Source: an uncultured Gammaproteobacteria bacterium (lineage in GTDB: Bacteria; Patescibacteriota; Microgenomatia; Levybacterales; UBA12049). Taken from it: DNA of 64,000 bases. Location: the NCBI GenBank assembly GCA_965230895.1, contig OZ246394.1, forward strand, positions 1,249,887 to 1,313,886. Direction: 5' to 3'. The position numbers were made by a program, and so were the translations under genes. This document shows, piece by piece, positions 41,570-62,300 of this stretch. Position 1 is the stretch's first letter. The number at the start of each line of letters is the position of its first letter. The notes beneath the pieces are model-generated. The model searched no databases and was not told the DNA's origin. It worked only from the letters and a program-made list of their open reading frames with translations.

Positions 41570-42211
41570 TTATTTGAGGTGTAGTTCGTGGTTTCCATAG
41601 ATGATGAGGACTTCGCCGTCTCGGATGGCTTTAAAAGGTATTTGCTTCGTTTCGAGATACGTAACGACTTCATTTACCGCTTCGGATTCTGGGTGATTTG
41701 ATTGGTAGTGTGGGATGAGAGAATAGGGGACGACATCAAGTCCTTCCCAGATGATTCCTGGTTCATAACCTTGTGGAATTAAATGTAGATCATCGACTAA
41801 ATCGACGCCTTTCATGGTTGGACTGAGTATGCACATGCCAGCGCTGTAGCCGCCATAGACAAGGGCATCTTCCTGCAATAACTGTTTTATAATCTCATCG
41901 GCGCTGCTTTTCTCCATAGCTTTACGGAGGACGAAAGCGTTTCCGCCCCGGACCCAAAGGAGATAATATTTCCTAAGCTCAACCTCCAATTCTGCTTTCT
42001 TCCCAAAGTATTCTTTGAGATCAACTTCTGTGACATCCAGGCCAAAATCTGTGAGTTCTTTGATGTCTTTTTTATTCCTTTCCTTGATCTCTTCTGGCGT
42101 TCGGAAGTCGACAGCATTTGCTATCAGTGCAGCCTTGGTTTTACCACCAAGAAGCTTTAACAATTCATCAGAATGATTCCCAAGTCGATACGAAGAAAGA
42201 TACAACCGCAT
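41570..42211 (-). CDS. Peptidase S51 (dipeptidase E/cyanophycinase-like) family serine peptidase
   Basis: VRGGNAFVL and YGGYSAGMCIL (GxSAG nucleophile elbow) plus a C-terminal His region are consistent with the S51 Ser-His-Glu triad fold. Confidence 0.65.
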   Translation of the reverse strand: MRLYLSSYRLGNHSDELLKLLGGKTKAALIANAVDFRTPEEIKERNKKDIKELTDFGLDVTEVDLKEYFGKKAELEVELRKYYLLWVRGGNAFVLRKAMEKSSADEIIKQLLQEDALVYGGYSAGMCILSPTMKGVDLVDDLHLIPQGYEPGIIWEGLDVVPYSLIPHYQSNHPESEAVNEVVTYLETKQIPFKAIRDGEVLIIYGNHELHLK

Positions 42212-42275
42212 GGATCAATTATAGCAGTGGCGTTTGTAGGAAAGATGTATTCGTTAATATTTTTTTTATGTCATA

Positions 42276-43274
42276 TTGTATAATTATTTGTGCATGAAAT
42301 GGTGGGCGTACATATTACTTGCTATAACAATTCCTCTTTCTGCTCTTTATCTCTATCAGCTCTATGATGACCAAACTTATGCTGGAGCGCCTCTTGCAAA
42401 GACTTCCAATTGTCCTTTTACCTATATAAATCAGCAACGATGTGAGCCAAATGTTGCTCCAAGAAAGCGTGAATATGTCGAATTGCGAAATGACCTTATT
42501 GAATATTTAGATTCAGAAAAAGAAAGCGGCCGATTAATTGATGGTGCTATTTATTTCCGTGATCTGCAGAATGGTCCTGTTATTAGTATTAATTCCCAAG
42601 ATTATTTCATCCCAGCAAGTTTGCTGAAACTTCCTTTGATGGTTACATATTTAAAGAAGGCTGAAACTGATCCAAATCTCCTTCAAAAGAACATTACGAT
42701 TACTAATGAAATGCAGTCTTTGGATCAAAATATCGTTCCTCGACAAGGTGCGCAAGTTGGCAAAACGTATACCCGTGAGCAATTACTTAATCTACTCATC
42801 TCACAATCAGATAACATTTCCTGGAAGGCTTTATTGACGGATCTCCGTGCCAATTATTCAGAAGAAGATTTCGTTGGTACCTTGAGTGATCTCGGTATCG
42901 TCGATCCTCGTAAACAAGATGACCAGCGGTACATTACAACACAAAATTATGCTTCTATTTATCGAATTCTTTACAATTCTTCCTATCTTAACGCCGAAAT
43001 GTCTAACAAGGCATTGTCAATCTTATCCAAATCTGAATTCAAAGATGGTATTGTTTCGGGAGTTCCAAGTAATGTTCAAACAGCTCACAAGTTTGGTGAA
43101 CAAAAAAATGGTAATGAGCAACAACTTCATGATTGTGGAATTGTCTATTATTCCCCAAGTCCATATATCATTTGCGTGATGACCAAAGGAACTGATATTA
43201 ACAATTTAGAAGCAGCTATTCGAACTGTCTCAAAGGATGTTTATACTGAAGTTGAGAAAAGAAATGCGGATTAA
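42276..43274 (+). CDS. Membrane-anchored class-A beta-lactamase-fold serine hydrolase (divergent), paralog 1
   Basis: N-terminal TM helix. SxxK (PASLLK), SDN (SQSDNIS) and K-x-G (HKFGE). No canonical Omega-loop ExxLN. Confidence 0.65.
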   Translation: MYNYLCMKWWAYILLAITIPLSALYLYQLYDDQTYAGAPLAKTSNCPFTYINQQRCEPNVAPRKREYVELRNDLIEYLDSEKESGRLIDGAIYFRDLQNGPVISINSQDYFIPASLLKLPLMVTYLKKAETDPNLLQKNITITNEMQSLDQNIVPRQGAQVGKTYTREQLLNLLISQSDNISWKALLTDLRANYSEEDFVGTLSDLGIVDPRKQDDQRYITTQNYASIYRILYNSSYLNAEMSNKALSILSKSEFKDGIVSGVPSNVQTAHKFGEQKNGNEQQLHDCGIVYYSPSPYIICVMTKGTDINNLEAAIRTVSKDVYTEVEKRNAD

Positions 43275-43276
43275 TA

Positions 43277-44248
43277 ATGAGGAAATTAAATATAATTTTA
43301 GCCATAGTAATTGCTCTTATCATTGGTTTTTTTTCTGGATCGCTCTATCCAAAGCAGAATAATACTGAATGTGAGGGTGATTATACATACATTAACGCAA
43401 GAATTGGGTGTCAGCCAAAAACAGTAATTAGTAAGCATGAATATACAGGTTTAATGCAAGATCTTAATATTTACATTCGAGCCCAAACCGAAGCAAAACA
43501 TGTGAATCTTGTAGCTGTTTATTATCGAGATTTATCAGCTGGACCTACATTTGGGATTGAATCTCAGGAGAAGTTTGCACCAGCAAGCTTACTTAAGGTT
43601 CCACTCCTCTTAACATATTTAAGTTTAGCAGAGACAGATTCAAACCTATTAAAGAAGCAAATTGCTTTTAAAGGTACAACAGATCTCTTAACTCAATCAT
43701 CTTCTGGTTCATCAGTTCTTAAATCAAATAAAGCATATACAATTGATTCATTGCTGTCCAAAATGATTATAGATTCTGACAATCTTTCGTATGTTCTTCT
43801 GGTAAATTCACTGAAAGAACTTTATCCTAAACAATATCCACTGACTGATACTATGCTTGATCTTGGCTTAGTTAATCCGCGGAACCCTTCAGAAGATACT
43901 ATTACTGTCAAAGCTTATGCATCTATTTTTAGGCATCTATATAATAGTAGCTATCTTTCCCCTGAAATGTCAGAAAAAGCATTACAACTTTTATCACAGG
44001 CTGATTATTCAAAAGGCATTGTCGCTGGGGTTCCTACTGGTACCAAAGTTGCCCATAAATTTGGTGAGCGAGGTAATTTACCTAATGATGCTCAACAGCT
44101 TCATGATTGTGGAATTGTCTATTACCCTGATAATCCATATCTTATTTGTATAATGACTCGTGGAGACAATATGCAGGAATTAGAAACTGTCATCAAAACC
44201 ATTTCAGAAAAAGTCTACAAAGAAGTTGATTCCAGAAAGATTAAATAA
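43277..44248 (+). CDS. Membrane-anchored class-A beta-lactamase-fold serine hydrolase (divergent), paralog 2
   Basis: APASLLK, DSDNLS and HKFGERG. Clear paralog of the upstream gene (QQLHDCGIVYY...PYIICVMT is shared). Confidence 0.65.
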   Translation: MRKLNIILAIVIALIIGFFSGSLYPKQNNTECEGDYTYINARIGCQPKTVISKHEYTGLMQDLNIYIRAQTEAKHVNLVAVYYRDLSAGPTFGIESQEKFAPASLLKVPLLLTYLSLAETDSNLLKKQIAFKGTTDLLTQSSSGSSVLKSNKAYTIDSLLSKMIIDSDNLSYVLLVNSLKELYPKQYPLTDTMLDLGLVNPRNPSEDTITVKAYASIFRHLYNSSYLSPEMSEKALQLLSQADYSKGIVAGVPTGTKVAHKFGERGNLPNDAQQLHDCGIVYYPDNPYLICIMTRGDNMQELETVIKTISEKVYKEVDSRKIK

Positions 44249-44310
44249 ATCTTCATTCTGTACTTGTGCCGACAAAGTACCAACGCTCTCAGTACTCGCT
44301 AATTGTTTTT

Positions 44311-47300
44311 TTATTCTAGTGGTGTTGCTGAGGAGAGTTCTTGTGGTTTTTCTATTCCGATTTGCATGATCATTTCTGTCTCTGAGAACGCGATTCCAAC
44401 TGGAACTTCCTTTACAGCATTTGCTGGTGCTTCATCTGTGAGTGCACCTGAAACTCCCAAGAAATATTGTTTACCAACTTCCAAGTTGTTCAATACATTT
44501 GCTTTTCCTCCGATAATGATTGTGACATCTTTACCAGCTTGCGCATCGCTAGCAGCGATACCAACTACTACTGTCTTTGCTTCATCTGTTGCATCAGCAA
44601 TCATTACTTCTTTGGTAGCTGAGATGTAAAGCGCATCTCCTTTTTTAATATCTTCACCAGCCTTTGCTGTGATAGTGATAGCTCCAGCAAGATCGATATT
44701 ACCGCCCACTTTGATGTTTTCTTTGGTCTCAACATTCTTTGCGACGATATTGCCCTTAGTGATCATTGATCCATTCTTGTCGATGATCATCGCGCCGTTG
44801 AAGATATCAAGCAAGTTCGCGAGTGGTGACTTCTGCAAGAACAAGATACCATCTGTTGGTTCTTGGCCATTTTCGATTGGTGAGCCAAAGACACTAATTT
44901 CATTTTCTGTGACAGAGAGTGTACCGCCGACATTGATTCGATCATCAACTGTGAGGACTCCTGCGACATTTGTATCTTCGAGTGTTGTCTTGCCTGTCAC
45001 CATGATATCTCCTGAAATTGTTGTGTCACCGAGATATGATTTGCCGAATGACTTGAATGTATCTTGAACAGTTGCAGTGTACGCAGTAAATTCACCACTG
45101 ATTGTTGCTGTTGCAAAGATTGCATTATCAGTAGGGGATGCAGAATTTGTCGCGATCAACAAGTCAGGTGAAGTAAGATCTTCAGCTGATGGAGTTGGCT
45201 CTGCACTTTCACTTGCTGTTGGAGTAGCAGAAGGTGAACCGACGCCACTTGTTGGAGTAGGGGTAGCTGAGACATTAAGACTTGCGATCAAGTCATCAAG
45301 TCTCTGACTCAAACTAGCGAGATCTGCTGAATTTGATGCATTGTTTATCTCTGCAAGTTGTTGTTCCAAGTTAGCGAGCTGTGCATCAGTTGAAGCAACT
45401 TTGTCTCCAAGGATTGCTGCATTGCTTGCTGCTTCTTCAGCTTTTTGTTGTGCTGCTGCAAGTGCTGCAGCCTTAGATGCTTCTTGTGATTCGAGATTTG
45501 TAAGTCGACTATCAAGTTGGTTTGTCTTTTCTTCGAGACTGATTGCACTTGCTTGAAGTGAACTTATAGCAGTTGTCTTATTTGTGAGACTGTTGTTAAC
45601 AGCCAAGAACGCATCAGCCAATGATCCATTAACAACTTGTCCATCGATCTGCATGTTGGATGGGAGGACGACATCTCCAGTTTCGATTGTCTCTTCATCA
45701 GTAAGGATAGCCAATTTGTTACTTGGATCAGCAAATGTAATATTGACGAATGTCATAACCTTACCAACACCTGTTCCAGTGAAGTCTTCAAGTGCTTTAC
45801 CGATAACTTGTCCTGGCTTCGTTGCTTTCATAGCGATACCAGCAACTGATGAAGAAGTGAGGTAATCGCCCTTTTTGATCTGTCCATTTTCTGTACTCAC
45901 CTTGACTGGGACACGTCCAGCAAGAGCAACTGGTACAGCCTTGCCACCACTGATCATTTGTTCATTTTGTGATAATCTAAAGCCTGGTTTCTCGCTGTAA
46001 ACACCGATTATTGTAGTATCATATGTACCCTCTGATTTCTTAACGTTTTCATCAACATTTTGGTCGATAGAAAGGACGTCACCGGCTTGCAGTGAATCGT
46101 CTTGCGTACCATAATCTTCAGCCAAATCATAGTTGCCGCCGTTGGTTGTAAGTGTTCCAGACAATGTCGCGTTGCCAGTACTGTCGATAGAGAAGAGTTC
46201 TTGGTTTGCTGCATTCTTCCACATGAACTTGTTGGTGTCAATTCCTGTGTAGTCGGATGCCAACTTACTGATAACATCTCCATTGATTCCTTGGATTGAT
46301 CCTGAGAGCAAGTCGAGGAGAGGAGTCTTAACTGATCCTGAAGCTGTAACATCTCCGAATGCTGCTGAACTTGCAGTAAGATCTCCAAGAATATCGAAGT
46401 TACCATTATGAGTCCAAGCGCCGAGGCCAGAGTATTCCGGTACAGCATTTGGATCAGCATAAGCATTAACAACATATACCATGACAGTGGTTTTTCCACT
46501 ATTTGGATCCCAATCTTCCAGAGCTTTACCGACAATAAATCCTTTTTGTGTTGCCTTCATACCTTTACCTGATTCAGCAGATGTCGTAACGAAATCACCG
46601 GTTTGAATTGCAGGAGATGATGCAGAAATCTTTACAGGGACACGGCCATTCAAAGCAATTGGCATCGGTCGATCTGCTTCTTCAATATTATGTCCAATAC
46701 TATTAAAGTCACCTGCATTATCTGGATTTGAAACGATACCAATAGTACTGGATTGATATTCAGAGGTTGTTTTAACAAGTTTTGATACTCTTTCACCATC
46801 TTTAGTTGTGATGTATGTAGATCCTGGAGCTACGATATCACCTGTTTCGATATCATCATCAACTGAATACATTTCCATATAGTCGGCTGCAGGTGTTGAT
46901 GTACAATCTCGGATAAGGACATTGGTCGTTATACCATTTCCATTTTCTCCACAAAGTGCTTCGTCTGAACTGCCGCTTGCAAGGTCAATCATCAATGTGC
47001 CGTTAATATTAACAACACCGTTGGTATTGTTATCAATAGTTTCACCATTCTGGAGTTGGATATCGTTGGTGATATTTGTATTAGAGAACGTCAAACCTGT
47101 GCCTGTACTTGCACCAATTGTAACGTTACCAGCATTTGCTACGGTAAATACTGATGTACCTGAGTCTTTAAGTTCCATGAGTGGTCCAGTTCCAGCGTTG
47201 TTGACAACAAGTGCTGTTCCTGATGTCGTACCATTTACATTGACGATAGGTTGGGTAGTCGAACTACTCGCAACATCAAGTGCTGCTCCTGGAGTGTATG

Positions 47301-50300
47301 TATTGATACCCAATTGTCCTGTTTGTGTTGTACTAGTACTTCCCATTGCAGGATTAACGATATTCCAGTACAAACCATTGCCAATCGGAGTAATGTTATT
47401 GATACCGAAGTCAGACATAACTGTACCAGTCTTACCTACGACGAGACCCTTGATGTAATGGTTATTGTTTGATCCACCAGTACGAGCACCAAATCCGAAC
47501 TTCGTGTTGTCTGGATTGTACAAGTTACGAGTGTAAACGTCTCGGTAGTTGAGAACTGGTTGACCATCGATACGAACAACGATTTCGTTTCCTCGGATGA
47601 TGATATCTGCTTGCTTAAATTGGTTTGTATCGATAGTACCGTTTGGCAACACAGCTACAGCAAGTGGGTTACCAGCACCGCCACCAGTTGTGCATTGTCG
47701 ACCATCGGTAAATGGTCCGTATGTGATACCGATACAATCGTTACCTGAACCAGCACCGTATTCACTGAAGTAGATGATGTAACCCTGGGTCATGCCAGCA
47801 CCGTATTCAGTTGTAGGAACAGCATTTGCATAACTGTAGAACCAAGTACCATCAGCACCTGTACCACCACCAGCTTTGAAGTTAAATTGGATGTGTTCAT
47901 AAGGAAGCTGGTTGAAGTCCCAGTTGATTGAACCATTCTGGTTGTTTGCATTTGATGTAAGTCGAACTCCGTTACCACCACCGACGTATGATGCATTACC
48001 AGAAAGGGTAGGGACTGGATCTGCCTGGCTTCCAGTTGTTGGATCGTTAACACCGTCCCAGTAAGCGAGTGCAGCATTGGTGATAGCTGTATTAAGTGAT
48101 GCCAAACCGATATTACCTGATCCATCGACACCCAAGATACTTGTGAATGCACCAGTTGCTGTTTGTGCTGTTGTTACCTGACTGATTCTCAAACCTGAAA
48201 CATTGGTTGTACCAGAATTAATCGTAAGTGTGTTATCAAGTGATGTTGGTCCGTGCAATGTAAGTGCACCAGTGTTATTTCCGATTGTTGTTGCTGCAGT
48301 TCCAGTACTGTTGATGAGAGTTGTTCCAGTTACAGTAAGTCCGTTACTTGTTACGATTCCGTCACAAGTGAGGTTACCATTTGCATTGAATACTGTACAT
48401 CCAGTTGTACCAGTTCCACCAGCCAATTCGATGTTTCCAGTTGAAACGTTACCGATTCGGATATTTCCGGTTGTTCCAGCATTAATACTGAGTGGAGTAG
48501 CAGCAGTTGTTACGCCAAGAGCAGGAGCATTTCCAGCAAGCGAAATTGTGTTTGAGTTAATGGTGAATGTTCCTGAACCAAATGTGATTGCTCGGTTATT
48601 TGTTGTGTTAATACCAAGTGTTCCAGTTCCAGAAAGATCAAAGATTGGGTTGTTACCAGTTAAGTTAAATGCAGTAGATGCAAAGTTTGATGTTGCACCG
48701 GATACTGTCAAACCACCATTGATTGTTGTTGTACTTCCAGATGCTCCGATTGAAAGGGTAGAAGCGCCGCCACCAATGTTAAGTGTTGATGTTTGTACTG
48801 TGTTAAACAAGTTTACTGTTGTTCCAGAAGTTGCATACAAGTCACCGCCGTTAACGATCAAGTCGCCAGTCATTGTTGTATTACCAGTTCCAAGGAATGA
48901 GTATGATGGGTTAGTTGAACCGTTACCGAATGAGATGTTTTCTGTACCATTTGTTGTGTTGATGTTAATGTAATTGTTTGCACCTTCCTGGATATCAAGA
49001 GCATCTGTATTGTTATCAACCAAGTTTGCAGTGATATCATTTCCAGCACCATTTGCTGTTAATGTAACAGTTGTTCCAGAAGCAGTGATTGCATCTCCAC
49101 CGTCTCCGATGTTTGCGATACCATTTGCAGTGAGTGTACCAGCAACGGTTAATCCATTATTTACTGTTGTTGTGCCAGTTGCTGCACCGAGTGAGACAGT
49201 TGTAGCAGCTCCGCCGATGTTCAATGTAGTAGCAGTTGTGTTGAACAAGTTCGCTGTTGCTTTTGCAGCAGTTAACGTTGATTGAGTAGTTCCATCGATT
49301 GTCAAACCACTTGATGCTGTTACTGCGCCGGTCAATGTAGAAATACCATCAACAGTTAATGTACCGTTTGCCTGTATGTTTCCAGCGTTACTGATACTCA
49401 CACCAGTTGACCCATAACCTCCGCCAACATTTACTGTATCAAATCCTGCAGTTGCACTTGTTGCTGCAATACTTGTTGCGTTAGGGAAGTTGATTGTTGT
49501 TCCTCGGATATTTCCAGTCGCATTTGTTGCGCCCAAAGTGTATGTTGTTGCAGCTCCACCGATATTCAATGTCGTTGCTCCAGTGTTGAAGAGGGAAGCA
49601 GTACCAGCAGTTGTTGTAAGATCTCCACCATTAAGAGCTGCATCTCCACCACTTGTGATGTCACCATTTGCACCGTTGACTGAGAAGTTTGTACCAGCGA
49701 TATCATTTGCACCAATTGAAAGAGCTGTTCCGATATCTGCATTACTGACATCAAGCGCAGTTGTAACATTGCCACTTGGTGTGCCAACGATTCTCAAAGC
49801 GATTGGCAATGCTCGATCGGTGTCTTGGTTTTGGATCAAAACGAGTTGTGTAGGATCTGCTGTCCCAGCGCCATTTGCCCGTGAGATTTCAATGCCACCT
49901 GTTGAACCAGTTGCCGTTGTAACTGTGAACTTAGAATCAGCAGTAGTGTCAGCAAGAGTGAATGCGATATCTTTGTTGTTTGTTGTTGTGATTGCATTGC
50001 CATTGTCATATGCACTTTGGAGACTTTGTGATGCAGCTGCACAAGTAACAACTTGGTTTGAACCATTTGTACAAAGTCCAGTTCCAGTAGCAGTTGTCAA
50101 ACCATTCAATGTTAAGAATGAATCAGCATCTGAAGTGATAGTAACTCCATTTGTTCCTGATGGTGAGAAGTTAGATTGACCATTTGCTGTGAATGTCTGA
50201 CCTGATGCAACTGTCAAACTACTGTTAAATGTTGCTGTTCCTCCAGCTGCACCGATTGCCATTGTTGTAGCAGCGCCACCGATGTTTACTGTTGTTGCGT

Positions 50301-53300
50301 TTGCATTAACCAAATTGAATGTTCCGGCAGTTGTTGTAATATCACCACCATTTACAGCAACGTCTCCAGTAGCAGTGACATTACCAGTTAATGTTGAAGT
50401 TCCATCGACAGTTAAGGTCCCATTTGCTTGGATATTTCCAGTGTTACTGACACTAACTCCAGTTGATCCGTATCCACCACCGATTGAGAGGGAATCAGCA
50501 TTGAATGCTGCTGTCAAAGCAGAGATTGTTGTTGCATTGTTGAAGTTAATTGTTGTTCCTCGGAGGTTTCCAGTCGCGTTGGTTGCACCGATTGTGTATG
50601 CAGTTGCAGCGCCACCCATGTTCAATGTCGTTGCATTTGTATTGAATACTGTTGCCGTACCAGTTCCTGATGTTGTGATGTCGCTTCCATTGACAGCCAA
50701 GTCACCTGATGTTGTGATATTACCAGTTGATCCAGTGATAGAGAAGTTAGTTGCTGATAAGTTGCTTGCACCAAGAGCGATACCAGTTGTGATACTTGCA
50801 TCAGAGACATCAAGTCCAGTTGTAACGCCACCACCACCAGATGATGTAACCTTCAAACCTGTTGGAACAGCTCGATTTGTGTCAGCATTGTCGATCAAGA
50901 TCAATTGTGCAGGATCTGAAGTGCCAGCACCATTAGCTCGTGAGAATGTAGAGAATCCAGTTGATCCATCAGCAGTTGTAACAGCGAAGTTAGAATCAGT
51001 TGCAGTGTCAGCGAGTGTGAATCCGATGTTTCGAGCATCTGTTGTTGTGATAGTGTTACCGTTGTTGTATGCAGTTTGCAAGTTAAGTGAAGATGCATTA
51101 CATGTACCAACATTATTTGATCCATCAAGACAGAGTGTAGTACCAGCAACTGATTGCAAACCAGTCAAGATCAATGTTGAATCAGCATCAGTTGCGAAAG
51201 TAATATCATTTGTACTATTTGGTGAGAATGAAACTGCACCAGCTGTTGTGAATGTACTGTTGTTTCCGACTGTCAAAGCATTTCGGACAGTTGTTGTACC
51301 TGTTGTTGCACCGAGTGTCATTGTTGTTGCAGCTCCACCAACATTCACTGTTGTTGCGGTTGTATTAAACAAGTTCGCTGTTGTCTTTGATGAGATCAAA
51401 TCTGATGTCGATGCACCATTGATTGTAACTCCATTTGATGCTGTAACTGCACCTGTCAATGTAGAAGTTCCGTCAACTGTGAGGTTGCCATTTGCTTGGA
51501 CATCTCCAGCACTTGAAACTGAAACTCCAGTTGAACCATAACCGCCGCCGATTGCAGTTGATGAGATGTTTAATGCTGCTGAATTTGCAGTGATTGATGT
51601 TGCGTTAGGGAAGTTGATTGTTGTACCTCGGATATTTTGTGTTGCATTGGTTGCACCGGTTGTGATACTTGTTGCTGCACTTCCCATTGTTACTGTTGTT
51701 GCATTTGTATCAAAGAGTGAGCCAGTAGTTGCAGTTGTTGAAAGTGTACCGCCATTAACTGCGACGTTTCCAGCAGTTGTGATGTTACCATTCGCTCCTG
51801 AGATAGAGAAGTTACTTGCTGAGACATCATTTGCACCGAGTGAAAGTGCTGTAACGATAGATGCATCTGAGAGATCAAGTGCAGTTGTTACACCAGCGCC
51901 ACCAGTTGATCCGATCTTGAGTCCTGTTGGCAAGATTCGATCAGCATCAGCATTGTCGATCAAGACGAGTTGTGATGGATCAGCAGATCCTGCGCCATTT
52001 GCTCTTGCGAAGACTGTTCCGCCAGTTGAACCATCAGCAGTTGTGATGTTGAAGTTAGCATCAGTTGCAGTGTCAGCCAATGTGAATCCGATGTTTCTGT
52101 TATTTGTTGTAGTGATTGTATTTCCATTGTCATAAGCAGCTTGCAAACTTGCATTTGCTGTCAAATCACATTTAACAACTTGATTTGAACCGTTAACACA
52201 AAGTGTTGGTTGTGCACCTGATGCTGTTGTCAAACCACTGATTGTTAAGAATGAATCAGAATCTGTTGCGATTGTTACACCATTTGTACTGTTAGGGGAG
52301 AATGATACTGCGCCAGTTGTTGTGAGCGCACTATTGTTAGCAACAGTCAAAGCATTTCGGACAGTTGTTGTACCAGTAGTTGCACCGAGTGAAACAGTAG
52401 TTGCTGCGTTACCAATATTCAATGTCGTTGCGTTTGTATTGAATAATGTTGCTGTTGCGAATGTTGTTGTAAGGTCTCCACCATTAAGAGCCAAGTCACC
52501 ACTTGAAGTGATGTTACCAGTCAATGTTGATGCTCCGTCAACTGTCAATGTACCATTTGCTTGGATGTTGCCAGCGTTACTGACACTAACTCCAGTTGAT
52601 CCATATCCGCCACCGATTGTTGCTGCATCGATTGTGAGAGTTGCGCCACTTGCATTCAATGCTGTTGCATTTGGAAGACTGACAGTTTGATTATTAATTG
52701 TTGCTGTACCACTTGCTCCACCGATGTTCAATGTTGTAGCAGCTCCAGCGAAGTTAACAGTCGTTGCAGTTGCATCAACCAAGTTGAATGTTGTCTGGTT
52801 TGTTGAGATAGTTCCACCATTTGCAGCGATTGAACCATTAGTTGAAAGGTTACCGTTACTACCAGTGAGTGAGAAGTTGGTTGCTGTGATGTCATTTGCG
52901 CCAAGTGAAAGTGCATTGACGATTTCAGCATCTGAGAGATCAAGTGCGTTTGTGATTCCACCAGCTGCAGCTTGGACTTTAATACCTGCTGCAACTGCTC
53001 GGTTTGTATCCAAGTTATCAACCAAGATCAATTGGTTTGGATCTGCAGTTCCAGCGCCATTTGCTCGAGTGAATGCTGAGTAACCAGTTGATCCATCAGC
53101 TGTTGTGATAGTGAAGTTACTATCAGTTGTTGTGTCAGCAAGTGTAAATCCGATGTCTCGTGCATCAGTTGTAGCAATTGTGTTTCCAGCATTATATGCA
53201 GCTTGGAGAGAGAATGATGCAGCTGAACATGTACCAACGTTATTTGATCCATCAACACAGAGAGTTGATCCGGCAACTGATTGCAAACCAGTTAATACCA

Positions 53301-56300
53301 ATGTTGAATCAGCATCAGTATTGATTGTGATATCACTTGTACTTGCTGGAGTAAATGATACTGCACCAGTTGAAGTGAGTGAACTGTTGTTACCGATTGA
53401 AAGGTTGTTGTTAACAGTTGTCGTACCAGTTGCTGCGCCGAGTGAAACAGTAGTCGCAGCACCACCAACATTCAATGTTGTTGCTCCTGTGTTGAATAGT
53501 GTTGCAGTACCAGATGTTGTCGTAAGATCTCCACCGTTCAATGCGATGTCTCCAGTTGCAGTAACATTTCCAGTTAATGTGGAAGTGCCATCAACAGTTA
53601 ATGTACCGTTTGCTTGAATGTTACCAGCATTACTGATTGTTGCACCAGTAGAACCGTATCCACCGCCGATTGCAACACTATCAAATGTAGCAGCAGCTTG
53701 TGGAGCAGTGAATGATGTAGCGTTAGCAAAGTTAATTGTTGCGTTTCTGATGTTAGCTGTACCAGTTGTTGCACCGATATTTAATGTCGTTGCAGCACCA
53801 CCAACATTAAGTGTTGTTGCTGTTGTATTGAAGAGGGAAGCAGTTGTTTGATTAGTTGTAAGATCGCCACCATTAACTGCGATATCACCAGCAGTTGTGA
53901 TGTTTCCATTTGAACCAGTGATTGAGAAGTTCGTTGCACTGACATCATTTGCACCGAGTGAGAGAGCGTTAACGATTGATGCATCTGAAAGGTCAAGTGC
54001 AGTTGTCACACCAGCTCCACCAGATGATCCGATTTTCAAACCAACTGGCAAGATTCGATCTGCATCCAAGTTATCGATCAAGACTAATTGTGTTGGATCA
54101 TTTGTACCAGCACCATTTGCTCGAGCAAATACTGAGTAACTTGATGAATTATCAGCTGTTGTTACTGAGAAGTTAGAATCAGTAGCTGTATCAGCCAAAG
54201 TGAATGAGATGTCTCGGTTGTTTGTTGTTGTGATAGTGTTTCCATTGTTGTATGCAGCTTGCAAACCTTGTGACGCTGAGTTACATGTACCAACGTTATT
54301 TGAACCATCGATACAAAGTGCTGTTCCTGTAAGTGACTGCAAACCAGTCAATACCAAAGTTGAATCAGCATCAGTATTGATTGTTACATCGTTTGTACTG
54401 TTAGGGGAGAATGATACTGCACCAGCGGTTGTGAATGTACTGTTGTTTCCAACAGTCAAAGCGTTTCGAACTGTTGTTGTACCAGTTGTTGCACCGAGAT
54501 TAAGAGCTGTAGCAGCACCACCAACATTCAATGTTGTTGCTGTAGTGTTAAACAAGTTCGCTGTTGTTTGTGTTGTGTTGATTGTTCCTGAGTTAGCATT
54601 GATGTTGCCAGTTGCAGTTAATGTACCAGAAACAGTTGCTGCGCCATCAACCCCGAGATTACCATTCATATTGATGTCTCCAGCATTTGTGATTGTTGTA
54701 CCACTTGAACCATAACCGCCACCGATTTGGATACTGTCAAATGTTGCTGCAGCTTGAGGAGCAGTGAATGAAGTTGCATTAGCAAAGTTGATTGTCGCGT
54801 TTCTGATGTTTGCAGTACCAGTAGTTGCTCCGATATTTAATGTGGTAGCAGCGCCACCGACGTTCAATGTCGTTGCATTTGTATTGAACAAGTTAGCTGT
54901 TGTTTGGTTTGTATTGATTGTTCCGGAATTAGCATTGATATTTCCTGAGAATGTACTTGCGCCAGTTCCGAGGAATGAGAATGTTGGATTAGTTATGGTG
55001 TTACCGAATGCAAGATTCTCAGCACCATTTGTTGTGTTCAAGTTAATGTAGTTATTTGAACCTTCCTGGATATCAAGAGCGTTTGCATTACCATCAACAA
55101 CATTTGCAACCAAGTTGTTATTCAATGTTGTTATGCCAGTTCCAGCACCAAGTGCAACTGTTGTAGCAGCACCACCGATGTTGAGTGTCGTAGCAGTTCC
55201 ATTGATCAAGTTAAATGTTCCAGCAGTTGTTGTAAGGTCGCCACCATTCACTGCGATGTCGCTTGCAGCAGTTACATTACCAGTTAATGTTGAAGTACTA
55301 TCAACTGTCAAAGTTCCGTTTGTTTGGATATTTCCAGCATTACTGACTGTCATACCAGTTGAACCGTAACCGCCGCCGACATTTAATGTGTCGATGTTTG
55401 CAGTAGCACCAGTTGCATTGATTACAGTTGCATTTGGAAGTGAGATTGTCGCATTGTTGATTGTTGCTGTTCCAGTGTTTGCACCCAAGTTCAATGTAGT
55501 AGCAGCGCCACCAATATTCAAAGTAGTAGCAGTTCCATTGAAGAGGGAAGCAGTGGTTTGATTTGTTGTAAGATCTCCACCATTAACTGCAACGTCTGCT
55601 GCTGTTGTAACATTACCTGTCAAAGTTGAAGTACCATCGATTGTTAATGTTCCGTTTGCTTGGATATTTCCTGTACTGCCAAGTGTTACACCAGTTGAGC
55701 CGTATCCGCCGCCAGCGTTAACAACATCAAATCCAGCTGTTGCTGAAGTACCATCAATTGTTGTCGCGTTAGGGAAGTTGATTGTTGTTCCTCGGATGTT
55801 ACCAGTTGCTCCAGTTCCACCGATTGTGTATGTGTTTGCAGCGCCGCCGATATTCAATGTCGTAACTCCAGAGTTAAGGAGATTGAATGTTGTTGCACTT
55901 GATGTTACGTCACCACCATTTACTGCAACGTCACCAGCAGTAGTGATGTTACCAGTTGCTCCGATAGTTCCTGAAGTTGAAACATTACCATTAGAACCGG
56001 TTACTGAGAAATTAGTACCAGTGATATCATTTGCACCGAATGAAAGAGCAGTACCGATTTCAGCATCTGATACATCAAGTGCTGTCGTGATGCCACCAGC
56101 AGCTGATTGGATCTTAATACCTGCTGGGACAGCTTCATTTGTATCCAAGTTCTCAACCATTACGAGTTGTGCTGGTGGAGTTGTGTTTGTGCCGTTAGCC
56201 AAACCGAAGTATGAATAGCCAGTTGATCCTGCAGCTGTTGTAACAGTGAAGTTAGAATCAGTTGATGTGTTAGCCAAGTTGAATGCGATGTCTCGTGCGT

Positions 56301-59300
56301 CTGTTGTTGTGATTGTGTTACCACCAGCATATGCGTTTTGGAGACTGAGTGTTGCATTTGCACATTGGACAACATTGTTTCCTCCGTCGAGACAGAGTGG
56401 AGTACCGGTTGTTGTTCCCAAACCATTCAAGATTATTGTTGAATCAGTATCAGTTGTGAAGGTTATGTCATTTGTACTGTCTGGAGCAAATGTACTTGCA
56501 CCATTTGCTGTGAATGATTGACCAGTTGCGACAGTTGCTCCAGCATTGAATGTTGCCAAGCCAGTTGCAGTTGTTGTTCCGTCGATCAAAAGGTCATTCT
56601 TAATGTTTGTTGTACCAGTTGCAGCACCCAAGTTAAGAGCAGTAGCAGCGCCGCCAACATTCAATGTTGTAACGCCAGTGTTCAAGAGATTAAATGTGCC
56701 AGCAGATGAAGTTAAGTCTCCACCGTTAATTGCGACATCACCAGTTGCAGTTACATTTCCGGTTAATGTAGAAGTGCCATCGATTGTTAAGTTGCCATTT
56801 GCTTGGATGTTTCCAGCATTAGAGAGAGTTGCTCCAGTTGATCCATATCCACCACCAACGTTCAATGTATCAAATCCAGCAGTTGCTGAAGTTCCATCGA
56901 TAGTTGTTGCATTAGGGAAGTTGATAGTTGTTCCTCGGATGTTTCCAGTTGCTGATGTTGCACCCAAAGTGTATGTCGTTGCAGCGCCACCGATGTTAAG
57001 CGTTGTAGCATTTGTATTGAACAAGTTAGCTGTTGTTTGGTTTGTAGCCAATGTTCCAGAATTTGCATTGATGTTGCCAGTTGCTGTAATTGTCCCTGAT
57101 GTTGTGATGTTTCCGTTACTGCCAGTGATAGAGAAGTTCGTAGCAGTGACATCATTTGCACCGAGTGATAATGCATTAACAATTTCAGGATCTGAGAGAT
57201 CAAGGGCATTTGTGATACCACCAGCAGCTGATTGGATTCGGATTCCAGCAGCGACAGCTCGATCTGTATCCAAGTTATCAACCAAGATCAATTGTGCAGG
57301 GTCTGAAGTTCCAGCGCCATTTGCTCGTGCGAAGATACTTGTACCAGTTGAACCATCAGCTGTTGTAACTGTGAAGTTAGAATCAGTTGCAGTATTTGTC
57401 AATGTGAATGCGATGTCTCGAGCATCTGTTGTGTCGATTGTATTGCCACCAACATATGCATTTTGGAGATTAAGTGTTGCATTTGCACATTGGACAACAT
57501 TATTTGATCCGTCGAGACAAAGTGCTGTACCAGATGCTGTTCCAAGTCCAGTTAAGATGAATGTTGAATCAGCATCAGTTGCAAAGGTAATGTCATTTGT
57601 ACCGTTTGGTGTGAATGTACTTGTACCGTTTGCTGTCAATGTTTGGCCTGATGGGATAGTTGCGCCACCATTGAATGTTGCCAAACCAGTTGCAGTCAAA
57701 GCATTATTGACTGTTGTTGTTCCAGAACCAGCACCAAGTGAAACAGTTGTTGCAGCGCCACCGATATTCAAAGTAGTAGCAGTTCCGTTAAAGAGGGAAG
57801 CAGTTGTTTGGTTGGTTGTAAGATCTCCACCATTGACCGCTACGTCTGCACCAGCTGTTACATTTCCTGTAAGTGTTGAAACTCCATCGATTGTCAAAGT
57901 TCCATTTGCTTGGATGTTTCCAGTATTTGAAAGGGTAGTGCCAGTTGAACCGTATCCGCCACCGATTTGAATACTATCAAATGTTGCAGCAGCTTGAGGA
58001 GCAGTGAATGACGTAGCGTTAGCAAAATTGATAGTAGCGTTTCGGATGTTTGCAGTACCAGTAGTTGCACCAAGTGTGAGTGAAGTAGCAGCGCCACCAA
58101 TATTCAATGTTGTAGCAGTTGTATTGAACAAGTTACCAGTTGTCTGTGATGTAGCAATTGTTCCTGAATTAGCATTGATGTTGCCAGTGAATGTGCTCGC
58201 ACCAGTTCCTAAGAATGAGTAAGTTGGATTGGTTGTTGTGTTACCGAATGAGATGTTTTCAGCACCGTCAGTTGTGTTGACGTTAATGTAATTGTTTGTA
58301 CCTTGTTGGATATCAAGAGCATTTGCATTGTTATCAACCATGTTGACGTTCAAGTTGTTATTCAATGTCGTTGTACCTGTACCAGCACCGATGTTTACAT
58401 CTGTAGCAGCGCCACCAACGTTAAGTGTTGTAGCATTTGTGTTTGCGATGTTCATTGTACTTGCGCTTGTTGTGATGTCGCCACCATTTACAGCAACATC
58501 ACCAGCAGCTGTTACATTGCCAGTTAGTGTAGAAGTACCATCAATTGTGAGATCTCCGTTTGCTGAGATGTTTCCATTGTTTGCGATAGTAGCACCAGTT
58601 GATCCATAACCTCCACCGACATTCACTGCATCAACATTTGCAGTAGCTCCAGTTGCATTGATTGCAGTTGCATTTGGAAGTGAGAGCGTAGCATTGTTAA
58701 TTGTTGCTGTACCACTGTTTGCACCGATGTTCACAGTTGTAGCAGCTCCACCAACGTTCAATGTTGTAGCATTTGCATTGAAGACATTTGCAGTTCCAGC
58801 AGTTGTTGTAAGTGAACCGCCGTTAACTGCAACGTTTCCAGCAGTTGTGATGTTTCCGTTACTACCAGTGATAGAGAAGTTAGTCGCAGTTACATCATTT
58901 GCTCCGAGAGATAATGCGTTAACGATTTCAGGATCTGAAAGATCAAGAGCATTCGTGATTCCACCAGCTGCAGCTTGGATCTTGATGCCAGCAGCAACAG
59001 CTCGGTCTGTGTCCAAGTTATCAACCAAGATCAATTGTGCAGGGTCTGAAGTTCCAGCGCCATTTGCTCGAGTGAATGTTGAGTAGCCAGTTGAACCATC
59101 AGCTGTTGTAACTGAGAAATTACTGTCAGTTGTTGTGTTAGCCAACGTGAATGCGATGTCTCGAGCATCTGTTGTATTGATTGTATTTCCACCATTGTAT
59201 GCAGATTGCAATGTTGTTGTGTTCGCTGAACACTTTGTAACGTTGTTACTACCATCAACACAGAGTTGTGAACCAGCTGTTACTGGGGTTGTAAGGCCTG

Positions 59301-62300
59301 AGATGTTCAAGAATGAATCAGTATCAGTTGTGATGTTGATGTCATTAGTGCCATCAGGTGAGAAGTTAGATTGGCCATTTGCATTGAATGTTTGACCAGT
59401 TGCGACAGTTGCACCAGCATTTGCAGTGATCAAGCCAGTAGCAGTCAGCGCATTGTTAACAGTTGTTGTGCCAGTACTTGCACCGAGTGAAACAGTTGTT
59501 GCAGCGTTACCGATATTCAATGTAGTTGCAGTTGCATTGAAGAGGGAAGCAGTTGTTTGGTTTGTAGTGATGTCTCCGCCATTAACTGCGATGTCTCCAC
59601 CTGCTGTTACATTACCAGTTAATGTTGATATACCATCAACAGTTAGTGTACCGTTTGCTTGGATGTTTCCAGTGTTACTGATTGAGACTCCAGTTGAACC
59701 GTATCCACCGCCGATTGCTGTTGATGCAAATGTCGCAGCAGCATTTGGAGCAGTGAATGATGTAGCATTACCGAAGTTAACTGTTGCATTGTTGATGTTT
59801 GCAGTACCAGTAGTTGCACCGATATTTACTGATGTAGCAGCACCTCCAACGTTCAATGTTGTTGCATTTGCATTGAAGACATTTGCAGTTCCAGCAGTTG
59901 TTGTAAGTGAACCACCGTTAACTGCAACGTTTCCTGCTGTTGTGATGTTACCATTTGAACCATCGATAGAGAAGTTAGTAGCAGTGACATTATTTGCACC
60001 GAGTGAGAGCGCATTCACGATTTCAGCGTCAGAGAGATCGATTGCATTGGTGATTGTTCCAGCAGCTGATTGGATCTTAAGACCTGCTGCGAGTGTTTCA
60101 TTTGCGTCATTATTTTCGATCAAGACCAATTGTCCAGCAGGAGCAGCATTTGAGCCATCAGCCAAACCGAAGTATGAATAGCCAGTTGATCCAGCTGCTG
60201 TTGTGACTGTGAAGTTAGCATCAGTTGTTGTGTTATCAAGTGTGAAGTCGATATCTCGGCCATCAGTTGTAACGATTTCATTGCCACCATCATATGCACC
60301 TTGCAACGTAACTGCTGCAGTTGAACAGATAACGATGTTGTTACTACCATCAATACAAATGTTATCTCCAGCAGCAGTTGTAAGACCTGAAACATTCAAG
60401 AATGAATCAGCATCAGTTGTGATGTTGATGTCATTTGTCCCGTCAGGAGAGAATGTTGATTGACCATTTGCTGAGAATGTCTGACCAGTCGCAACAGTTG
60501 CACCAGCATTAAATGTTGCGAGACCAGTTGATGTTGTTGTTCCATCGATAAGCAAATTGTTGTTAACATTTGTAGTTCCAGAACCAGCACCGATGTTAAC
60601 TGAAGTACCAGCACCAGCGATGTTAACTGTAGTTGCAGTTGCATTGAAGAGGGAAGCAGTTGTCTGACTTGTTGTGATGTCGCCTCCGTTAACTGCGAGA
60701 TCAGCACCAGCAGTGACGTTTCCAGTCAATGTTGAAGTACCATCAACAGTTAATGTGCCGTTTGCTTGGATGTTTCCACCATTTGAAAGGGTAGTACCAG
60801 TTGAACCATAACCGCCACCAATTTGGATTGAATCAAATGTAGCAGCAGCTTGAGGAGCAGTAAATGATGTTGCATTCGCAAAGTTGATTGTTGCATTTCG
60901 GATGTTAGCTGTACCAGTTGTTGCGCCGATATTAAGAGTTGCAGCAGCACCACCAACATTAAGCGTAGTAGCAGTTGTGTTGAACAAGTTACCAGTTGTT
61001 TGTGTTGTAGCCAATGTTCCAGAGTTAGCATTGATGTTTCCAGTAGCAGTGATAGTTCCACCAGTTGAAACGTTTCCGTTAGAACCGGTTACTGAGAAGT
61101 TAGTTCCAGTGATATCATTTGCACCGAATGAGAGAGCAGTACCAATTTCAGCATCACTTACATCAAGCGCTGTTGTGATACCGCCAGCAGCTGATTGGAT
61201 TCGGATTCCAGCTGCGATTGCTTCATTGGTATCGTTATTTTCAATCAATACCAATTGATTTGCAGGAGCAGCATTTGAGCCATCAGCCAAACCGAAGTAT
61301 GAGTATCCAGTTGAACCAGCAGCTGTAGTAACAGTGAAGTTACTGTCAGTAGCTGTATCAGCCAAAGTAAATCCGATGTTTCGGTTGTTTGTTGTTGTGA
61401 TAGTGTTTCCAGCATCGTATGCAGATTGCAATGTTCCAGCAGTTGTTGTACAAACAACGACATTGTTACTGCCATCGAGACAGAGGTTATCGCCAGTACC
61501 AGTTCCCAAACCGTTCAATGTGAAGAATGAATCAGCATCAGTGTTGAATGTTATACCGTTTGTGCTGTCAGGGGAGAAGGTTGACTGGCCGTTTGCTGTG
61601 AATGTTTCGCCAGTTGCGACAGTTGCGCCGCCATTAAGTGTAGCCAAATCATCAACTGTCAAAGCGTTGTTCACTGTTGTTGTTCCTGATCCAGCACCGA
61701 TATTAACTGAAGTTGCAGCTCCGGCTACATTTACTGTTGTAGCATTTGTATTAAAGACATTTGCAGTTCCAGCTGTTGTTGTAACATCTCCACCATTTAC
61801 AGCGACATCACCAGCAGTTGTAACATCTCCAGTTAATGTAGAAGTACCATCAACTGTGAGGTTGCCATTTGCTTGGATGTTACCAGTGTTACTGATACTA
61901 ACTCCAGTTGAACCGTAACCGCCACCGATTGTTGTACTATCAAGTGATGCAGCTGCGAGACTTGCATCTATTGTTGTAGCGTTAGGGAAGTTGATAGTTG
62001 TTCCTCGGATAGTTCCAGTTGCTGAAGTTCCGCCGATTGTGTAAGCAGTGGTTGCGCCACCAACATTGAGTGTCGTTACTCCAGTGTTGAGGAGATTGAA
62101 TGTACCAGCAGAGGATGTTAAGTCACCACCGTTTACAGCAATGTCACCAGTAGTTGTTACGTTGCCAGTTAATGTTGAAGTTCCATCGATAACCAAATTA
62201 CCATTTGCTGAGATGTTACCGTTATTTGCAAGTGTTGTACCAGTAGAACCATAACCGCCACCAACTGCGATTGAATCAAATGTCGCAGCTGCATTTGGAG

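What the first reader, a model, noticed from the sequence alone, without database searches (positions are those of the whole stretch)
44311..48800. Non-repetitive C-terminal region of the giant protein: jelly-roll-like segment, duplicated ~135-aa module, coiled coil, PT linker
The C-terminal ~1,400 aa differ from the repeats in three ways. (i) A ~230-aa segment (AYWDGVND...IRGNEIVVRIDGQPV...FGFGARTGG) has the look of a ConA/LamG-like jelly roll. (ii) Two paralogous modules share the pattern [AE]DY..., ETGD[IV]V, IG[IV][VY]S, PVAL[NA]GRVPVK[IV]S, KGD[FY][LV]T[ST]S, G[IM](K)AT, IGKALEDxxxxxGxxxVM. I cannot place this pattern in a named family. (iii) A heptad coiled coil (LTNLESQEASKAAALAAAQQKAEEAAS...LANLEQQLAEI) is followed by a Pro/Thr linker. 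A duplicated distal module plus a coiled coil suggests a receptor-binding tip or intramolecular-chaperone-like end, as in fibre proteins.
Basis: partly seen in the sequence, partly recalled or inferred. Interest (0 to 1): 0.6.

Follow-up and report, generated by a model that had tools for sequence, protein, structure and literature searches.

The report
Phage-tailspike-like maturation cassette ending giant protein
The last ~1,250 residues of a >6,500-residue protein from an ultrasmall (Patescibacteria-type) bacterium are built from phage tail-fibre parts: a sugar-binding lectin fold, two copies of the self-cleaving "auto-chaperone" domain known from phage phi29's tail spike, a coiled coil and a capsid-cement-like end domain. 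This suggests how such giant surface fibres fold and mature.

Summary
The giant minus-strand ORF (44311 to beyond 64000) ends in this order:
- an L-type-lectin jelly roll
- two paralogous ~140-aa modules (35% identity, E 1e-21)
- a ~115-aa single-register heptad coiled coil
- a Ser/Thr/Pro linker

The "unplaceable" module can be placed. A 41-sequence profile hits the phi29 gp12 C-terminal auto-chaperone (PDB 3gqh, E 2.7e-5). The module's invariant Asp falls on residue 1 of that cleaved fragment (D692), and its Glu falls on E695. An AF2 model (pLDDT 92.8) has gp12 structures 3suc and 3gqh as top PDB fold hits, followed by phage capsid cement proteins.

The family is very large: 32,235 clusters at 50% identity. 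Tandem copies about 120 aa apart are common. D-x-A-E is nearly invariant.

A syntenic relative keeps module B and everything after it at 79-96% identity. It lacks the lectin region, and its module A is only 46% identical.

Best reading: trimerising, probably self-cleaving maturation modules behind a swappable lectin "specificity" segment. Cleavage itself is inferred, not shown. I rate this a new variant of a known kind, of moderate interest.

The parts
44311..64000 (-). Giant ORF, longer than 6,563 aa. The N-terminus lies beyond the window edge; the stop codon is at 44311-44313.
   Evidence: There is no stop upstream up to base 63999. The repeat region has no credible Pfam hit.
47392..48084 (-). 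L-type (legume-like) lectin jelly-roll domain, ct 240-470
   Evidence: AF2 pLDDT 84.6. Foldseek PDB top hits are ERGIC-53, VIP36, Emp47p and SraP, E 3e-10, TMq 0.65-0.69. Pfam hits are sub-threshold. Absent from the syntenic relative L001.
46888..47391 (-). Beta-rich Gly/Thr/Asn stalk between the lectin and module A (ct 471-638). It has two Cys residues just upstream of module A.
   Evidence: No Pfam or PHROG hit. Sequence read directly. Residues 570-638 are 51% identical to L001.
46447..46887 (-). Module A, a gp12-D4-like auto-chaperone/autoproteolysis domain (ct 639-785). The D640-Y-M-E643 motif is at 46873-46884. The predicted scissile bond is A639|D640.
   Evidence: 157.5 bits to the module HMM. 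35% identical to module B, E 1e-21. The profile hits 3gqh with Asp on D692 and Glu on E695. Pfam Phage_cement_2 0.02.
46129..46446 (-). ~106-aa beta-rich spacer between the modules (ct 786-891)
   Evidence: No family hit. 79% identical to L001. Across the family the inter-module gap has a median of 120 aa.
45721..46128 (-). Module B, a gp12-D4-like domain (ct 892-1027). The D892-L-A-E895 motif is at 46117-46128. The predicted scissile bond is Y891|D892.
   Evidence: AF2 pLDDT 92.8. Foldseek PDB top hits are 3suc and 3gqh_A. BFVD hits include phage 'preneck appendage protein barrel' and tail-fibre proteins, TMq 0.73-0.78. Pfam XM1_gp53 9.5e-5. 96% identical to L001.
45274..45630 (-). Heptad coiled coil, ct 1058-1176
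   Evidence: A single register with 71% hydrophobic a/d positions. Weak Pfam/NCBIfam coiled-coil hits. Homologues' equivalent segments weakly match trimeric coiled coils: coronavirus HR1, reovirus sigma-1, EibD.
45115..45273 (-). Ser/Thr/Pro/Ala-rich linker, ct 1177-1229
   Evidence: Composition S 20%, T 18%, P 16%, A 14% over ct 1177-1225.
44722..45114 (-). Beta-rich segment preceding the terminal domain, ct 1230-1360
   Evidence: Conserved in 8 homologues. 94% identical to L001. No family hit.
44362..44721 (-). C-terminal phage-cement-like beta domain (ct 1361-1480), without the D-x-A-E motif
   Evidence: Pfam Phage_cement_2 24.5 bits (cut-off 24), phrog_4368 1e-11, phrog_122 head decoration 8e-4. 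Weak hit to the phi29 gp8.5 base, 6qyy. hhalign to the module profile is only suggestive.

Best explanation
The region is the C-terminal assembly-and-maturation end of a giant fibre-like protein. The protein is presumably a trimeric cell-surface fibre of a Patescibacteria/Saccharimonadia-type bacterium, and this end is built from phage tail-fibre parts.

Domain order: fibre repeats, L-type lectin domain, short stalk, gp12-D4-like module A, ~106-aa spacer, module B, coiled coil, Ser/Thr/Pro linker, beta segment, cement-protein-like end domain.

Proposed mechanism:
1. Three chains are brought into register by the coiled coil and by the trimer-forming D4-like and cement-like beta domains.
2. Folding of the long beta-rich fibre then propagates from this end, as in phi29 gp12 and Dpo31.
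3. Each D4-like module then probably cuts the chain just before its invariant Asp (A639|D640 and Y891|D892), using the conserved Glu three residues later.
4. The lectin domain is left close to the new C-terminus as the glycan-binding, species-specific part.

Shown here: domain identities, alignment of the motif to the gp12 cleavage site, family-wide conservation of that motif, and the mosaic conservation pattern.

Inferred: trimer formation, cleavage, surface location, and lectin function.
For: - Profile A1 hits gp12 D4 (3gqh, E 2.7e-5) with Asp on residue 1 of the released fragment. In full-length gp12 (6qz9) this gives D692 and E695. The uncleaved 'pre-mature' crystal form 3suc carries Gln at the Glu position. 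Dpo31 D4 (28nb) reads DYAEYF.
- Literature: gp12 D4 is cleaved off after folding (PMC3357383). Dpo31 D4 starts at Asp664, acts as an auto-chaperone and is lost from the mature protein (PMC13317679).
- Fold: top PDB hits are 3suc and 3gqh_A, then trimeric capsid cement proteins. BFVD phage tail-fibre and 'preneck appendage barrel' proteins match at TMq 0.73-0.78 and 30-39% identity.
- 12 of 41 family members hit Pfam Peptidase_G2. P0062 passes the cut-off over the module's N-terminus.
- Motif conservation: D in 158/160, A in 153/164 and E in 161/164 module instances. In tandem proteins the motif is present in 144/146 first copies and 137/146 second copies.
- Lectin fold.
- The syntenic relative keeps ct 786-1496 at 79-96% identity, lacks the lectin segment, and has a module A only 46% identical.
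- In Atu_ph07 the module sits at the extreme C-terminus of a protein encoded near a 4,449-aa structural protein.
Against: - Neither window module hits Pfam Peptidase_G2 directly at E<=10.
- The modules are internal and tandem, not terminal. 466 aa follow module B.
- In relatives the post-module tails carry apparently functional domains (H_lectin plus SH3_3 in P0041, K1-lyase_C in P0001). That fits poorly with a discarded chaperone.
- gp12 release is ATP-dependent (my recollection of Xiang et al. 2009). This would not work outside the cell, and the ATP-site residues were not checked.
- No multimer model was made, so trimerisation is inferred from relatives.
- The N-terminus, and hence export or anchoring, is outside the window.
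Confidence: 0.6

Rival explanations
1. The modules and the terminal domain are permanent, non-cleaving trimer 'clamps'. Structurally they are phage cement/decoration-protein-like beta domains that stay in the mature fibre and hold the three chains together. On this view the D-x-A-E strand is conserved for structural reasons, and the tail beyond them is a working part of the fibre.
For: - The same models and profiles also hit non-proteolytic trimeric capsid cement proteins: XM1_gp53 9.5e-5, Phage_cement_2, and the BB1, HFTV1, TW1, Sf11 and phi29 gp8.5 structures.
- The modules are internal and are followed by conserved domains that look functional.
- The P22 tailspike shows that an auto-chaperone domain can remain uncleaved (PMC4690869).
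Against: - The near-invariance of the exact gp12 catalytic pair at the exact domain boundary is hard to explain by structure alone.
- The cement-like third domain of the same protein lacks the motif.
- The best sequence and fold hits are the cleaving gp12 and Dpo31 domains, not cement proteins.
Confidence: 0.3
2. One reading: the duplicated modules plus coiled coil form the distal receptor-binding tip of the fibre.
For: - They sit near the C-terminus, which is where phage fibres bind receptors.
- The beta-barrel fold could in principle bind ligands.
- Some relatives have lectin or SH3 domains in the tail.
Against: - Module B and the tail are the most conserved part between syntenic relatives (86-96%), while the lectin segment is what is replaced.
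- The module core is conserved over 32,235 clusters.
- Homology points to a folding/processing domain.
Confidence: 0.07

Closest known systems
Phage phi29 gp12 pre-neck appendage, C-terminal auto-chaperone domain D4 (Pfam Peptidase_G2 PF11962; MEROPS G2; PDB 3gqh, 3gqk, 3suc), and Dpo31 D4 of marine podovirus Carin-1 (PDB 28nb)
   Same: - Same N-terminal D-Phi-A-E-x-aromatic motif: gp12 DFAEYF, Dpo31 DYAEYF, module A DYMEMY, module B DLAEDY.
- The motif is in register with the gp12 S691|D692 cleavage site.
- Same beta fold; these are the top PDB hits.
- Same position downstream of a beta-rich fibre and a binding domain.
   Different: - About 140 aa instead of 163-228.
- The window modules do not reach the Pfam model.
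- Two copies in tandem, both internal, followed by a 466-aa tail.
- Cellular rather than phage genomic context.
- ATP site and cleavage are untested.
Phage capsid cement/decoration proteins (Pfam Phage_cement_2/DUF2190 PF09956, XM1_gp53 PF23982, Phage_cement PF22758; phi29 gp8.5 base 6qyy; TW1, BB1 and HFTV1 structures)
   Same: - Shared beta fold and weak sequence similarity for all three domains.
- The terminal domain just reaches the PF09956 cut-off.
   Different: - Those are small stand-alone capsid-binding trimers.
- Here the domains are embedded in a giant fibre.
- Two of them carry the gp12 catalytic motif.
Peptidase_S74 / ICA intramolecular chaperone of endosialidase K1F, T5 pb1 and MYRF
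   Same: Same functional idea: a C-terminal trimeric chaperone that self-cleaves after the fibre has folded (PMC4690869).
   Different: Different fold and chemistry (Ser-Lys dyad, helical body). No S74 hit in any scan. It is an analogue, not a relative.
L-type lectin domains (ERGIC-53, VIP36, Emp46/47p, legume lectins, SraP L-lectin module of a staphylococcal serine-rich adhesin)
   Same: Same jelly-roll fold, TMq 0.65-0.69, E ~1e-9 to 1e-10. SraP shows the fold used in a bacterial surface adhesin.
   Different: Only 11-20% identity. Pfam scores are below cut-off. Ca2+ and sugar-binding residues were not mapped.

Membership tests
Peptidase_G2 / gp12-D4 auto-chaperone (PF11962, MEROPS G2) | Match to the Pfam PF11962 model at or above its gathering score | tested here: not met
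   No PF11962 hit for either window module at E<=10. 12 of 41 family members hit at E<=0.1 (best 2.6e-5), and homologue P0062 scores 27.3 bits against a cut-off of 25 over the module N-terminus. The window modules therefore belong to a divergent sister branch, not to the Pfam family as drawn.
Peptidase_G2 / gp12-D4 auto-chaperone (PF11962, MEROPS G2) | Asp at P1' of the self-cleavage site and Glu three residues later (gp12 D692/E695), located at the N-terminal boundary of the domain | tested here: met
   The profile alignment puts the invariant Asp on residue 1 of 3gqh_A and on D692 of 6qz9_A, and the Glu on E695. 3suc has Gln there. Window residues are D640/E643 and D892/E895. The motif is nearly invariant in 194 instances. 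The catalytic role of these residues is from my own knowledge of Xiang et al. 2009 and MEROPS; that paper is not held in the library.
Peptidase_G2 / gp12-D4 auto-chaperone (PF11962, MEROPS G2) | Fold of gp12 D4 | tested here: met
Peptidase_G2 / gp12-D4 auto-chaperone (PF11962, MEROPS G2) | Single copy at the extreme C-terminus of the fibre, removed on maturation | tested here: not met
   There are two copies, at ct 639-785 and ct 892-1027, with 466 aa following the second. Tandem internal copies are common in this branch: 140 of the 146 best representatives have two.
Peptidase_G2 / gp12-D4 auto-chaperone (PF11962, MEROPS G2) | Autocatalytic cleavage, trimer formation, and ATP-dependent release | not testable with these tools
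   There was no multimer prediction, no access to coordinates for mapping ATP-site residues, and no biochemistry.
Phage cement proteins (PF09956 Phage_cement_2 / DUF2190) | Match to the Pfam model at or above its gathering score | tested here: met
   The terminal domain (ct ~1361-1428) scores 24.5 bits against a cut-off of 24 when scanned as a 267-aa piece, but 22.3 bits in the longer query, so it is borderline. Modules A and B are sub-threshold only.
Phage cement proteins (PF09956 Phage_cement_2 / DUF2190) | Small stand-alone protein that decorates a capsid | tested here: not met
   The domain is the end of a protein longer than 6,563 aa, in a cellular gene neighbourhood.
Peptidase_S74 / ICA chaperone of endosialidase | Pfam match and Ser-Lys dyad at the cleavage site | tested here: not met
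   No hit in any Pfam or NCBIfam scan of the region.
L-type (legume-like) lectin domain | Concanavalin-A-like jelly-roll fold closest to L-type lectins | tested here: met
   Foldseek PDB top 50 is dominated by ERGIC-53, VIP36, Emp46/47p, legume lectin domains and SraP, with E down to 3e-10.
L-type (legume-like) lectin domain | Pfam match above cut-off, and conserved Ca2+/sugar-binding residues | tested here: inconclusive
   Lectin_leg-like scores 17.6 bits (cut-off 24) and Lectin_L-type 16.3 (cut-off 78.3). The PDB sequence search gives only weak legume-lectin and LamG hits. Binding-site residues were not mapped.

The most novel reading that the evidence does not exclude
Ultrasmall epibiotic bacteria have domesticated the phage tail-spike maturation system into a two-stage, ATP-independent, extracellular self-processing cassette. 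The two D4-like modules, set at a fixed ~120-aa spacing, would fold and cut in sequence. This would template a multi-thousand-residue trimeric fibre from its C-terminus, expose a swappable lectin tip, and release (or keep non-covalently bound) a coiled-coil/cement-like fragment with its own function. The branch comprises more than 30,000 sequence clusters, is largely invisible to Pfam's Peptidase_G2 model, and would amount to a general assembly principle for giant prokaryotic surface fibres.
Probability: 0.25. Interest if true: 0.65.

Novelty: new variant of a known kind. Interest (0 to 1): 0.5.

Why it matters
Giant proteins of Patescibacteria are mostly unannotated. Adhesins with glycan-binding domains are known to be needed for the epibiotic lifestyle of cultivated Saccharibacteria (PMC10633639).

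Recognising a gp12-type auto-chaperone/self-cleavage cassette and a lectin domain at the end of such a protein has three consequences:
- It gives a concrete, testable model for how a protein longer than 6,500 aa folds, namely C-terminally nucleated trimerisation followed by autoprocessing.
- It points to which part carries target specificity: the lectin segment, which is replaced between related species.
- It shows that a very large domain family (32,235 clusters at 50% identity) sits just outside current Pfam coverage, so many "hypothetical" fibre proteins could be annotated from it.

As I recall it, Xiang et al. (2009) already suggested that bacterial adhesins might mature like gp12. This locus is a candidate example, not a new principle.

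Tried and rejected
- S74/ICA-type chaperone: no hits.
- Direct Pfam and NCBIfam scans of the whole 1,496 aa gave only sub-threshold or coiled-coil noise. The identification needed a family profile.
- hhalign of the terminal-domain profile (A3) against the module profile (A1) gave only probability 17%, E 1.5e-3 over 40 columns. Homology of the third domain to the modules therefore rests on shared Pfam cement hits, not on a direct match.
- A possible natural gene split at the cleavage site (P0078, which starts MSTSGSYDVAEDF) turned out to be a probable frameshift of one long ORF. It gives no evidence either way.
- The search for related loci with alignment A1 failed because no stretch was conserved enough.
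- The primary gp12 paper (Xiang 2009; PMID 19450535, PMC2692858) is not held. PMC6542822 has no text on cleavage.
- Organism name could not be fixed. Window proteins are found on a 1.61-Mb contig with no name and on unnamed Logan contigs. Several close relatives carry the record title 'uncultured Gammaproteobacteria', which I suspect is a placeholder. Named relatives are Patescibacteria, Saccharimonadia, Minisyncoccota and Magasanikbacteria.
- Rfam and tRNA scans added only a tRNA-Asn.
- A coiled coil after the last module is not a family-wide feature: only 10 of 146 by my strict heuristic.
- The 'IETGDVV' echo after module B is not significant.

Full report
**Observation**

The finding lies in the last 1,496 codons ("ct" numbering; ct residue i starts at base 48801-3(i-1)) of a minus-strand ORF. 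The ORF ends at 44311 and is still open at base 63999, so the protein is longer than 6,563 aa and its N-terminus is outside the window.
- The two modules are ct 639-785 and ct 892-1027. They align at 35% identity over 146 residues, E 1e-21, and have no other copy in the window.
- A single heptad register runs through ct 1066-1176 with 71% hydrophobic a/d positions. It is the only such stretch in the region.
- ct 1177-1225 is S/T/P/A-rich.
It just reaches the Pfam Phage_cement_2 cut-off (24.5 against 24 bits) and hits phrog_4368 at 1e-11.

**Jelly roll**

Pfam gives only sub-threshold matches, all to ConA-like families (3keto-disac_hyd 7.8e-5, Lectin_leg-like, Lectin_L-type). The PDB sequence search gives weak legume-lectin and LamG hits. 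An AF2 model on a 14-sequence alignment (pLDDT 84.6) finds L-type lectins at the top of the PDB: ERGIC-53, VIP36, Emp46/47p, the M. jannaschii legume-lectin domain, and the L-lectin module of the staphylococcal adhesin SraP, with E down to 3e-10 and TMq 0.65-0.69. The fold assignment is solid. Sugar binding is inferred.

**The duplicated module**

A search with the C-terminal 1,257 aa found 62 relatives, mostly partial proteins from Patescibacteria/Saccharimonadia MAGs. A local HMM showed the module in nearly all that cover this part, once or twice per protein.

A 41-sequence alignment (A1) has an invariant Asp and a >=90% conserved Ala and Glu at its N-terminus. Searched against PDB sequences, the A1 profile gave these results:
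- It hits the phi29 gp12 C-terminal fragment 3gqh at E 2.7e-5, full-length gp12 6qz9 at 1e-4, the "pre-mature" gp12 3suc at 2.4e-3, and Dpo31 "chaperon domain D4" 28nb at 2.9e-3.
- The invariant Asp aligns with residue 1 of the released gp12 fragment, which is D692 in full-length numbering. The Glu aligns with E695.
- The uncleaved crystal form 3suc has Gln at the Glu position.
- Dpo31 D4 reads DYAEYF, gp12 reads DFAEYF, module A reads DYMEMY and module B reads DLAEDY.

[quoted passage not shown] It also states that Dpo31 D4 (Asp664-Lys828) is a gp12-like trimeric auto-chaperone missing from the mature spike (PMC13317679). The catalytic role of D692/E695 and the ATP-dependent release are from my own recollection of Xiang et al. 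2009, which the library does not hold.

Fold evidence agrees:
- The AF2 model of module B has pLDDT 92.8.
- Its first two Foldseek PDB hits are 3suc and 3gqh_A. Trimeric capsid cement/decoration proteins follow: Borrelia BB1, HFTV1, phi29 gp8.5 base, Sf11, TW1, Pam3.
- In the viral predicted-structure library it matches phage proteins, some named "preneck appendage protein barrel" or tail fibre, at TMq 0.73-0.78 and 30-39% identity.
- Scanning the 41 family members individually, 12 hit Pfam Peptidase_G2, 11 hit XM1_gp53 minor capsid protein, 8 hit Phage_cement_2 and 4 hit Phage_cement.
- Homologue P0062 passes the Peptidase_G2 cut-off exactly over the module's N-terminus.

The module is therefore a divergent branch lying between Peptidase_G2 and the phage cement families. 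The two window copies themselves do not reach the Pfam model.

**Family-level picture**

- The profile finds 32,235 clusters (50% identity) at E<=1e-3 and 25,667 at E<=1e-10 among 1.84 billion representatives.
- Of the 146 best-scoring proteins retrieved, 140 have two copies and 6 have three. This list favours multi-copy proteins because their scores add up.
- The gap between copies is tightly set (median 120 aa, interquartile range 114-122). The tail after the last copy has a median of 250 aa.
- The D-x-A-E motif is present in 144/146 first copies and 137/146 second copies. In 194 instances overall, Asp is present in 158/160 alignable cases and Glu in 161/164.
- Modules A and B are each closer to their own subtype in other proteins (52-60% and 45-71%) than to each other. 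The pair is therefore an old, shuffled arrangement, not a local duplication.
- Cultured phages rarely carry this branch. Only the jumbo phages Atu_ph07 and Phosso matched. In Atu_ph07 the module sits at the extreme C-terminus of a 607-aa protein encoded near a 4,449-aa structural protein.

**Context and mosaicism**

The neighbourhood is cellular: histidine kinase, aminotransferase, O-antigen-ligase/TPR protein, S51 peptidase, and two beta-lactamase-family genes. The window's proteins occur on a 1.61-Mb contig.

The closest genomic relative, L001 on a 1.32-Mb contig, is syntenic at ~80% nucleotide identity, including the downstream gene. Its protein compares as follows:
- ct 786-1496 is kept at 79-96% amino-acid identity: spacer 79%, module B 96%, coiled coil 87%, linker 91%, beta segment 94%, terminal domain 86%.
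- Module A is only 46% identical.
- ct 153-568, which includes the whole lectin domain, has no counterpart and is replaced by unrelated sequence.

So the variable, presumably specificity-determining part is the lectin segment. Module B and everything after it form a conserved unit.

**Mechanism**

By homology with gp12 and Dpo31, I propose the following sequence:
1. The coiled coil and the trimer-forming beta domains bring three chains into register at the C-terminus.
2. This nucleates folding of the upstream beta-rich fibre.
3. Each D4-like module then probably cleaves before its Asp (A639|D640 and Y891|D892).
4. The lectin domain is left ~180 residues from the new C-terminus. This mirrors the gp12 order of attachment, beta-helix, binding domain, then auto-chaperone.

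Steps shown here: domain identities, motif register, motif conservation, mosaic conservation. Steps inferred: trimer formation, cleavage, extracellular location, glycan binding.

**Caveats**

- The modules are internal and tandem.
- Tails in relatives carry H-type lectin, SH3_3 or K1-lyase_C domains, so the tail may be functional rather than discarded.
- ATP dependence would be a problem outside the cell.

The main rival, at about 0.3, is that these domains are permanent, non-cleaving trimer clamps akin to capsid cement proteins. The receptor-binding-tip reading of the modules is unlikely (about 0.07) given their conservation.

**Comparison and novelty**

The domain kinds are all known: gp12-type auto-chaperone, cement-protein fold, L-type lectin, coiled coil. 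What differs from the described systems:
- a tandem, internal arrangement with fixed spacing
- placement in a giant cellular protein of an ultrasmall bacterium
- the size of this branch outside current Pfam coverage

Full-text searches found no paper linking Patescibacteria proteins to tail-spike auto-chaperones.

I rate this as a new variant of a known kind, interest about 0.5. It is useful and testable, and it was anticipated in principle by the gp12 work.

Noticed in passing
Homologues P0015, P0017, P0028, P0051, P0062 (not in the window): These proteins of ~1,450-2,000 aa carry the same module and start with tandem phage-integrase N-terminal SAM-like domains (Phage_int_SAM_1/4/5, E 1e-15 to 1e-20). 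A DNA-binding-type domain fused to a fibre protein is an odd combination.
   Followed up: no
window ~46417-48577 compared with L001: A syntenic relative (~80% nt identity on both sides and in the downstream gene) has unrelated sequence in place of the lectin domain and a divergent module A. This looks like a replaced 'specificity' segment inside an otherwise conserved giant gene.
   Followed up: partly
window 44001-64000 compared with 30001-40000 and 42001-44000: The giant gene has 42-44% GC, against 36-39% in most flanking genes. The 40001-42000 bin is also high, at 43.7%.
   Followed up: no
window 42276-43274 (+) and 43277-44248 (+): Two tandem paralogous Beta-lactamase2-family (PF13354) genes lie immediately downstream of the giant gene's 3' end and converge on it. 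A Peptidase_S51 gene is at 41570-42211 (-). The pair is conserved next to the giant gene in other assemblies.
   Followed up: no
window 37558-38295 (-) and 38497-38976 (-): A SET-domain protein (E 2.9e-19) lies next to an ORF that has only the IS1595 transposase zinc-ribbon.
   Followed up: no
window 48001-63999 (-), repeat region of the giant ORF: The only Pfam 'hit' is a repeated 20-residue match to UBA_RAD5A (no stretch passing on its own). It is almost certainly a compositional or repeat artefact. The ~5,000-aa repeat region is otherwise unannotatable with Pfam.
   Followed up: no
L019 5940-6040 (homologue P0078): A 292-aa 'gene' starting right at the module (MSTSGSYDVAEDF) follows an 1,898-aa Kelch/CBM protein. 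The module frame stays open upstream of its ATG, so this looks like a frameshifted single ORF rather than a natural split at the cleavage site.
   Followed up: yes
L001-L007, L013, L014 record titles: Several MAGs that carry close relatives of this Patescibacteria-type protein are titled 'uncultured Gammaproteobacteria bacterium'. One is a 1.32-Mb single contig. This is probably placeholder or incorrect taxonomy in the records.
   Followed up: no
window 30573-30645 (+): tRNA-Asn (GTT), the only RNA gene detected in the window.
   Followed up: yes
window ~45667-45687 (-), ct 1039-1045: Directly after module B the sequence 'IETGDVV' echoes the start of module A ('IETGDIV'). The similarity is not statistically significant (E 0.66).
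   Followed up: yes
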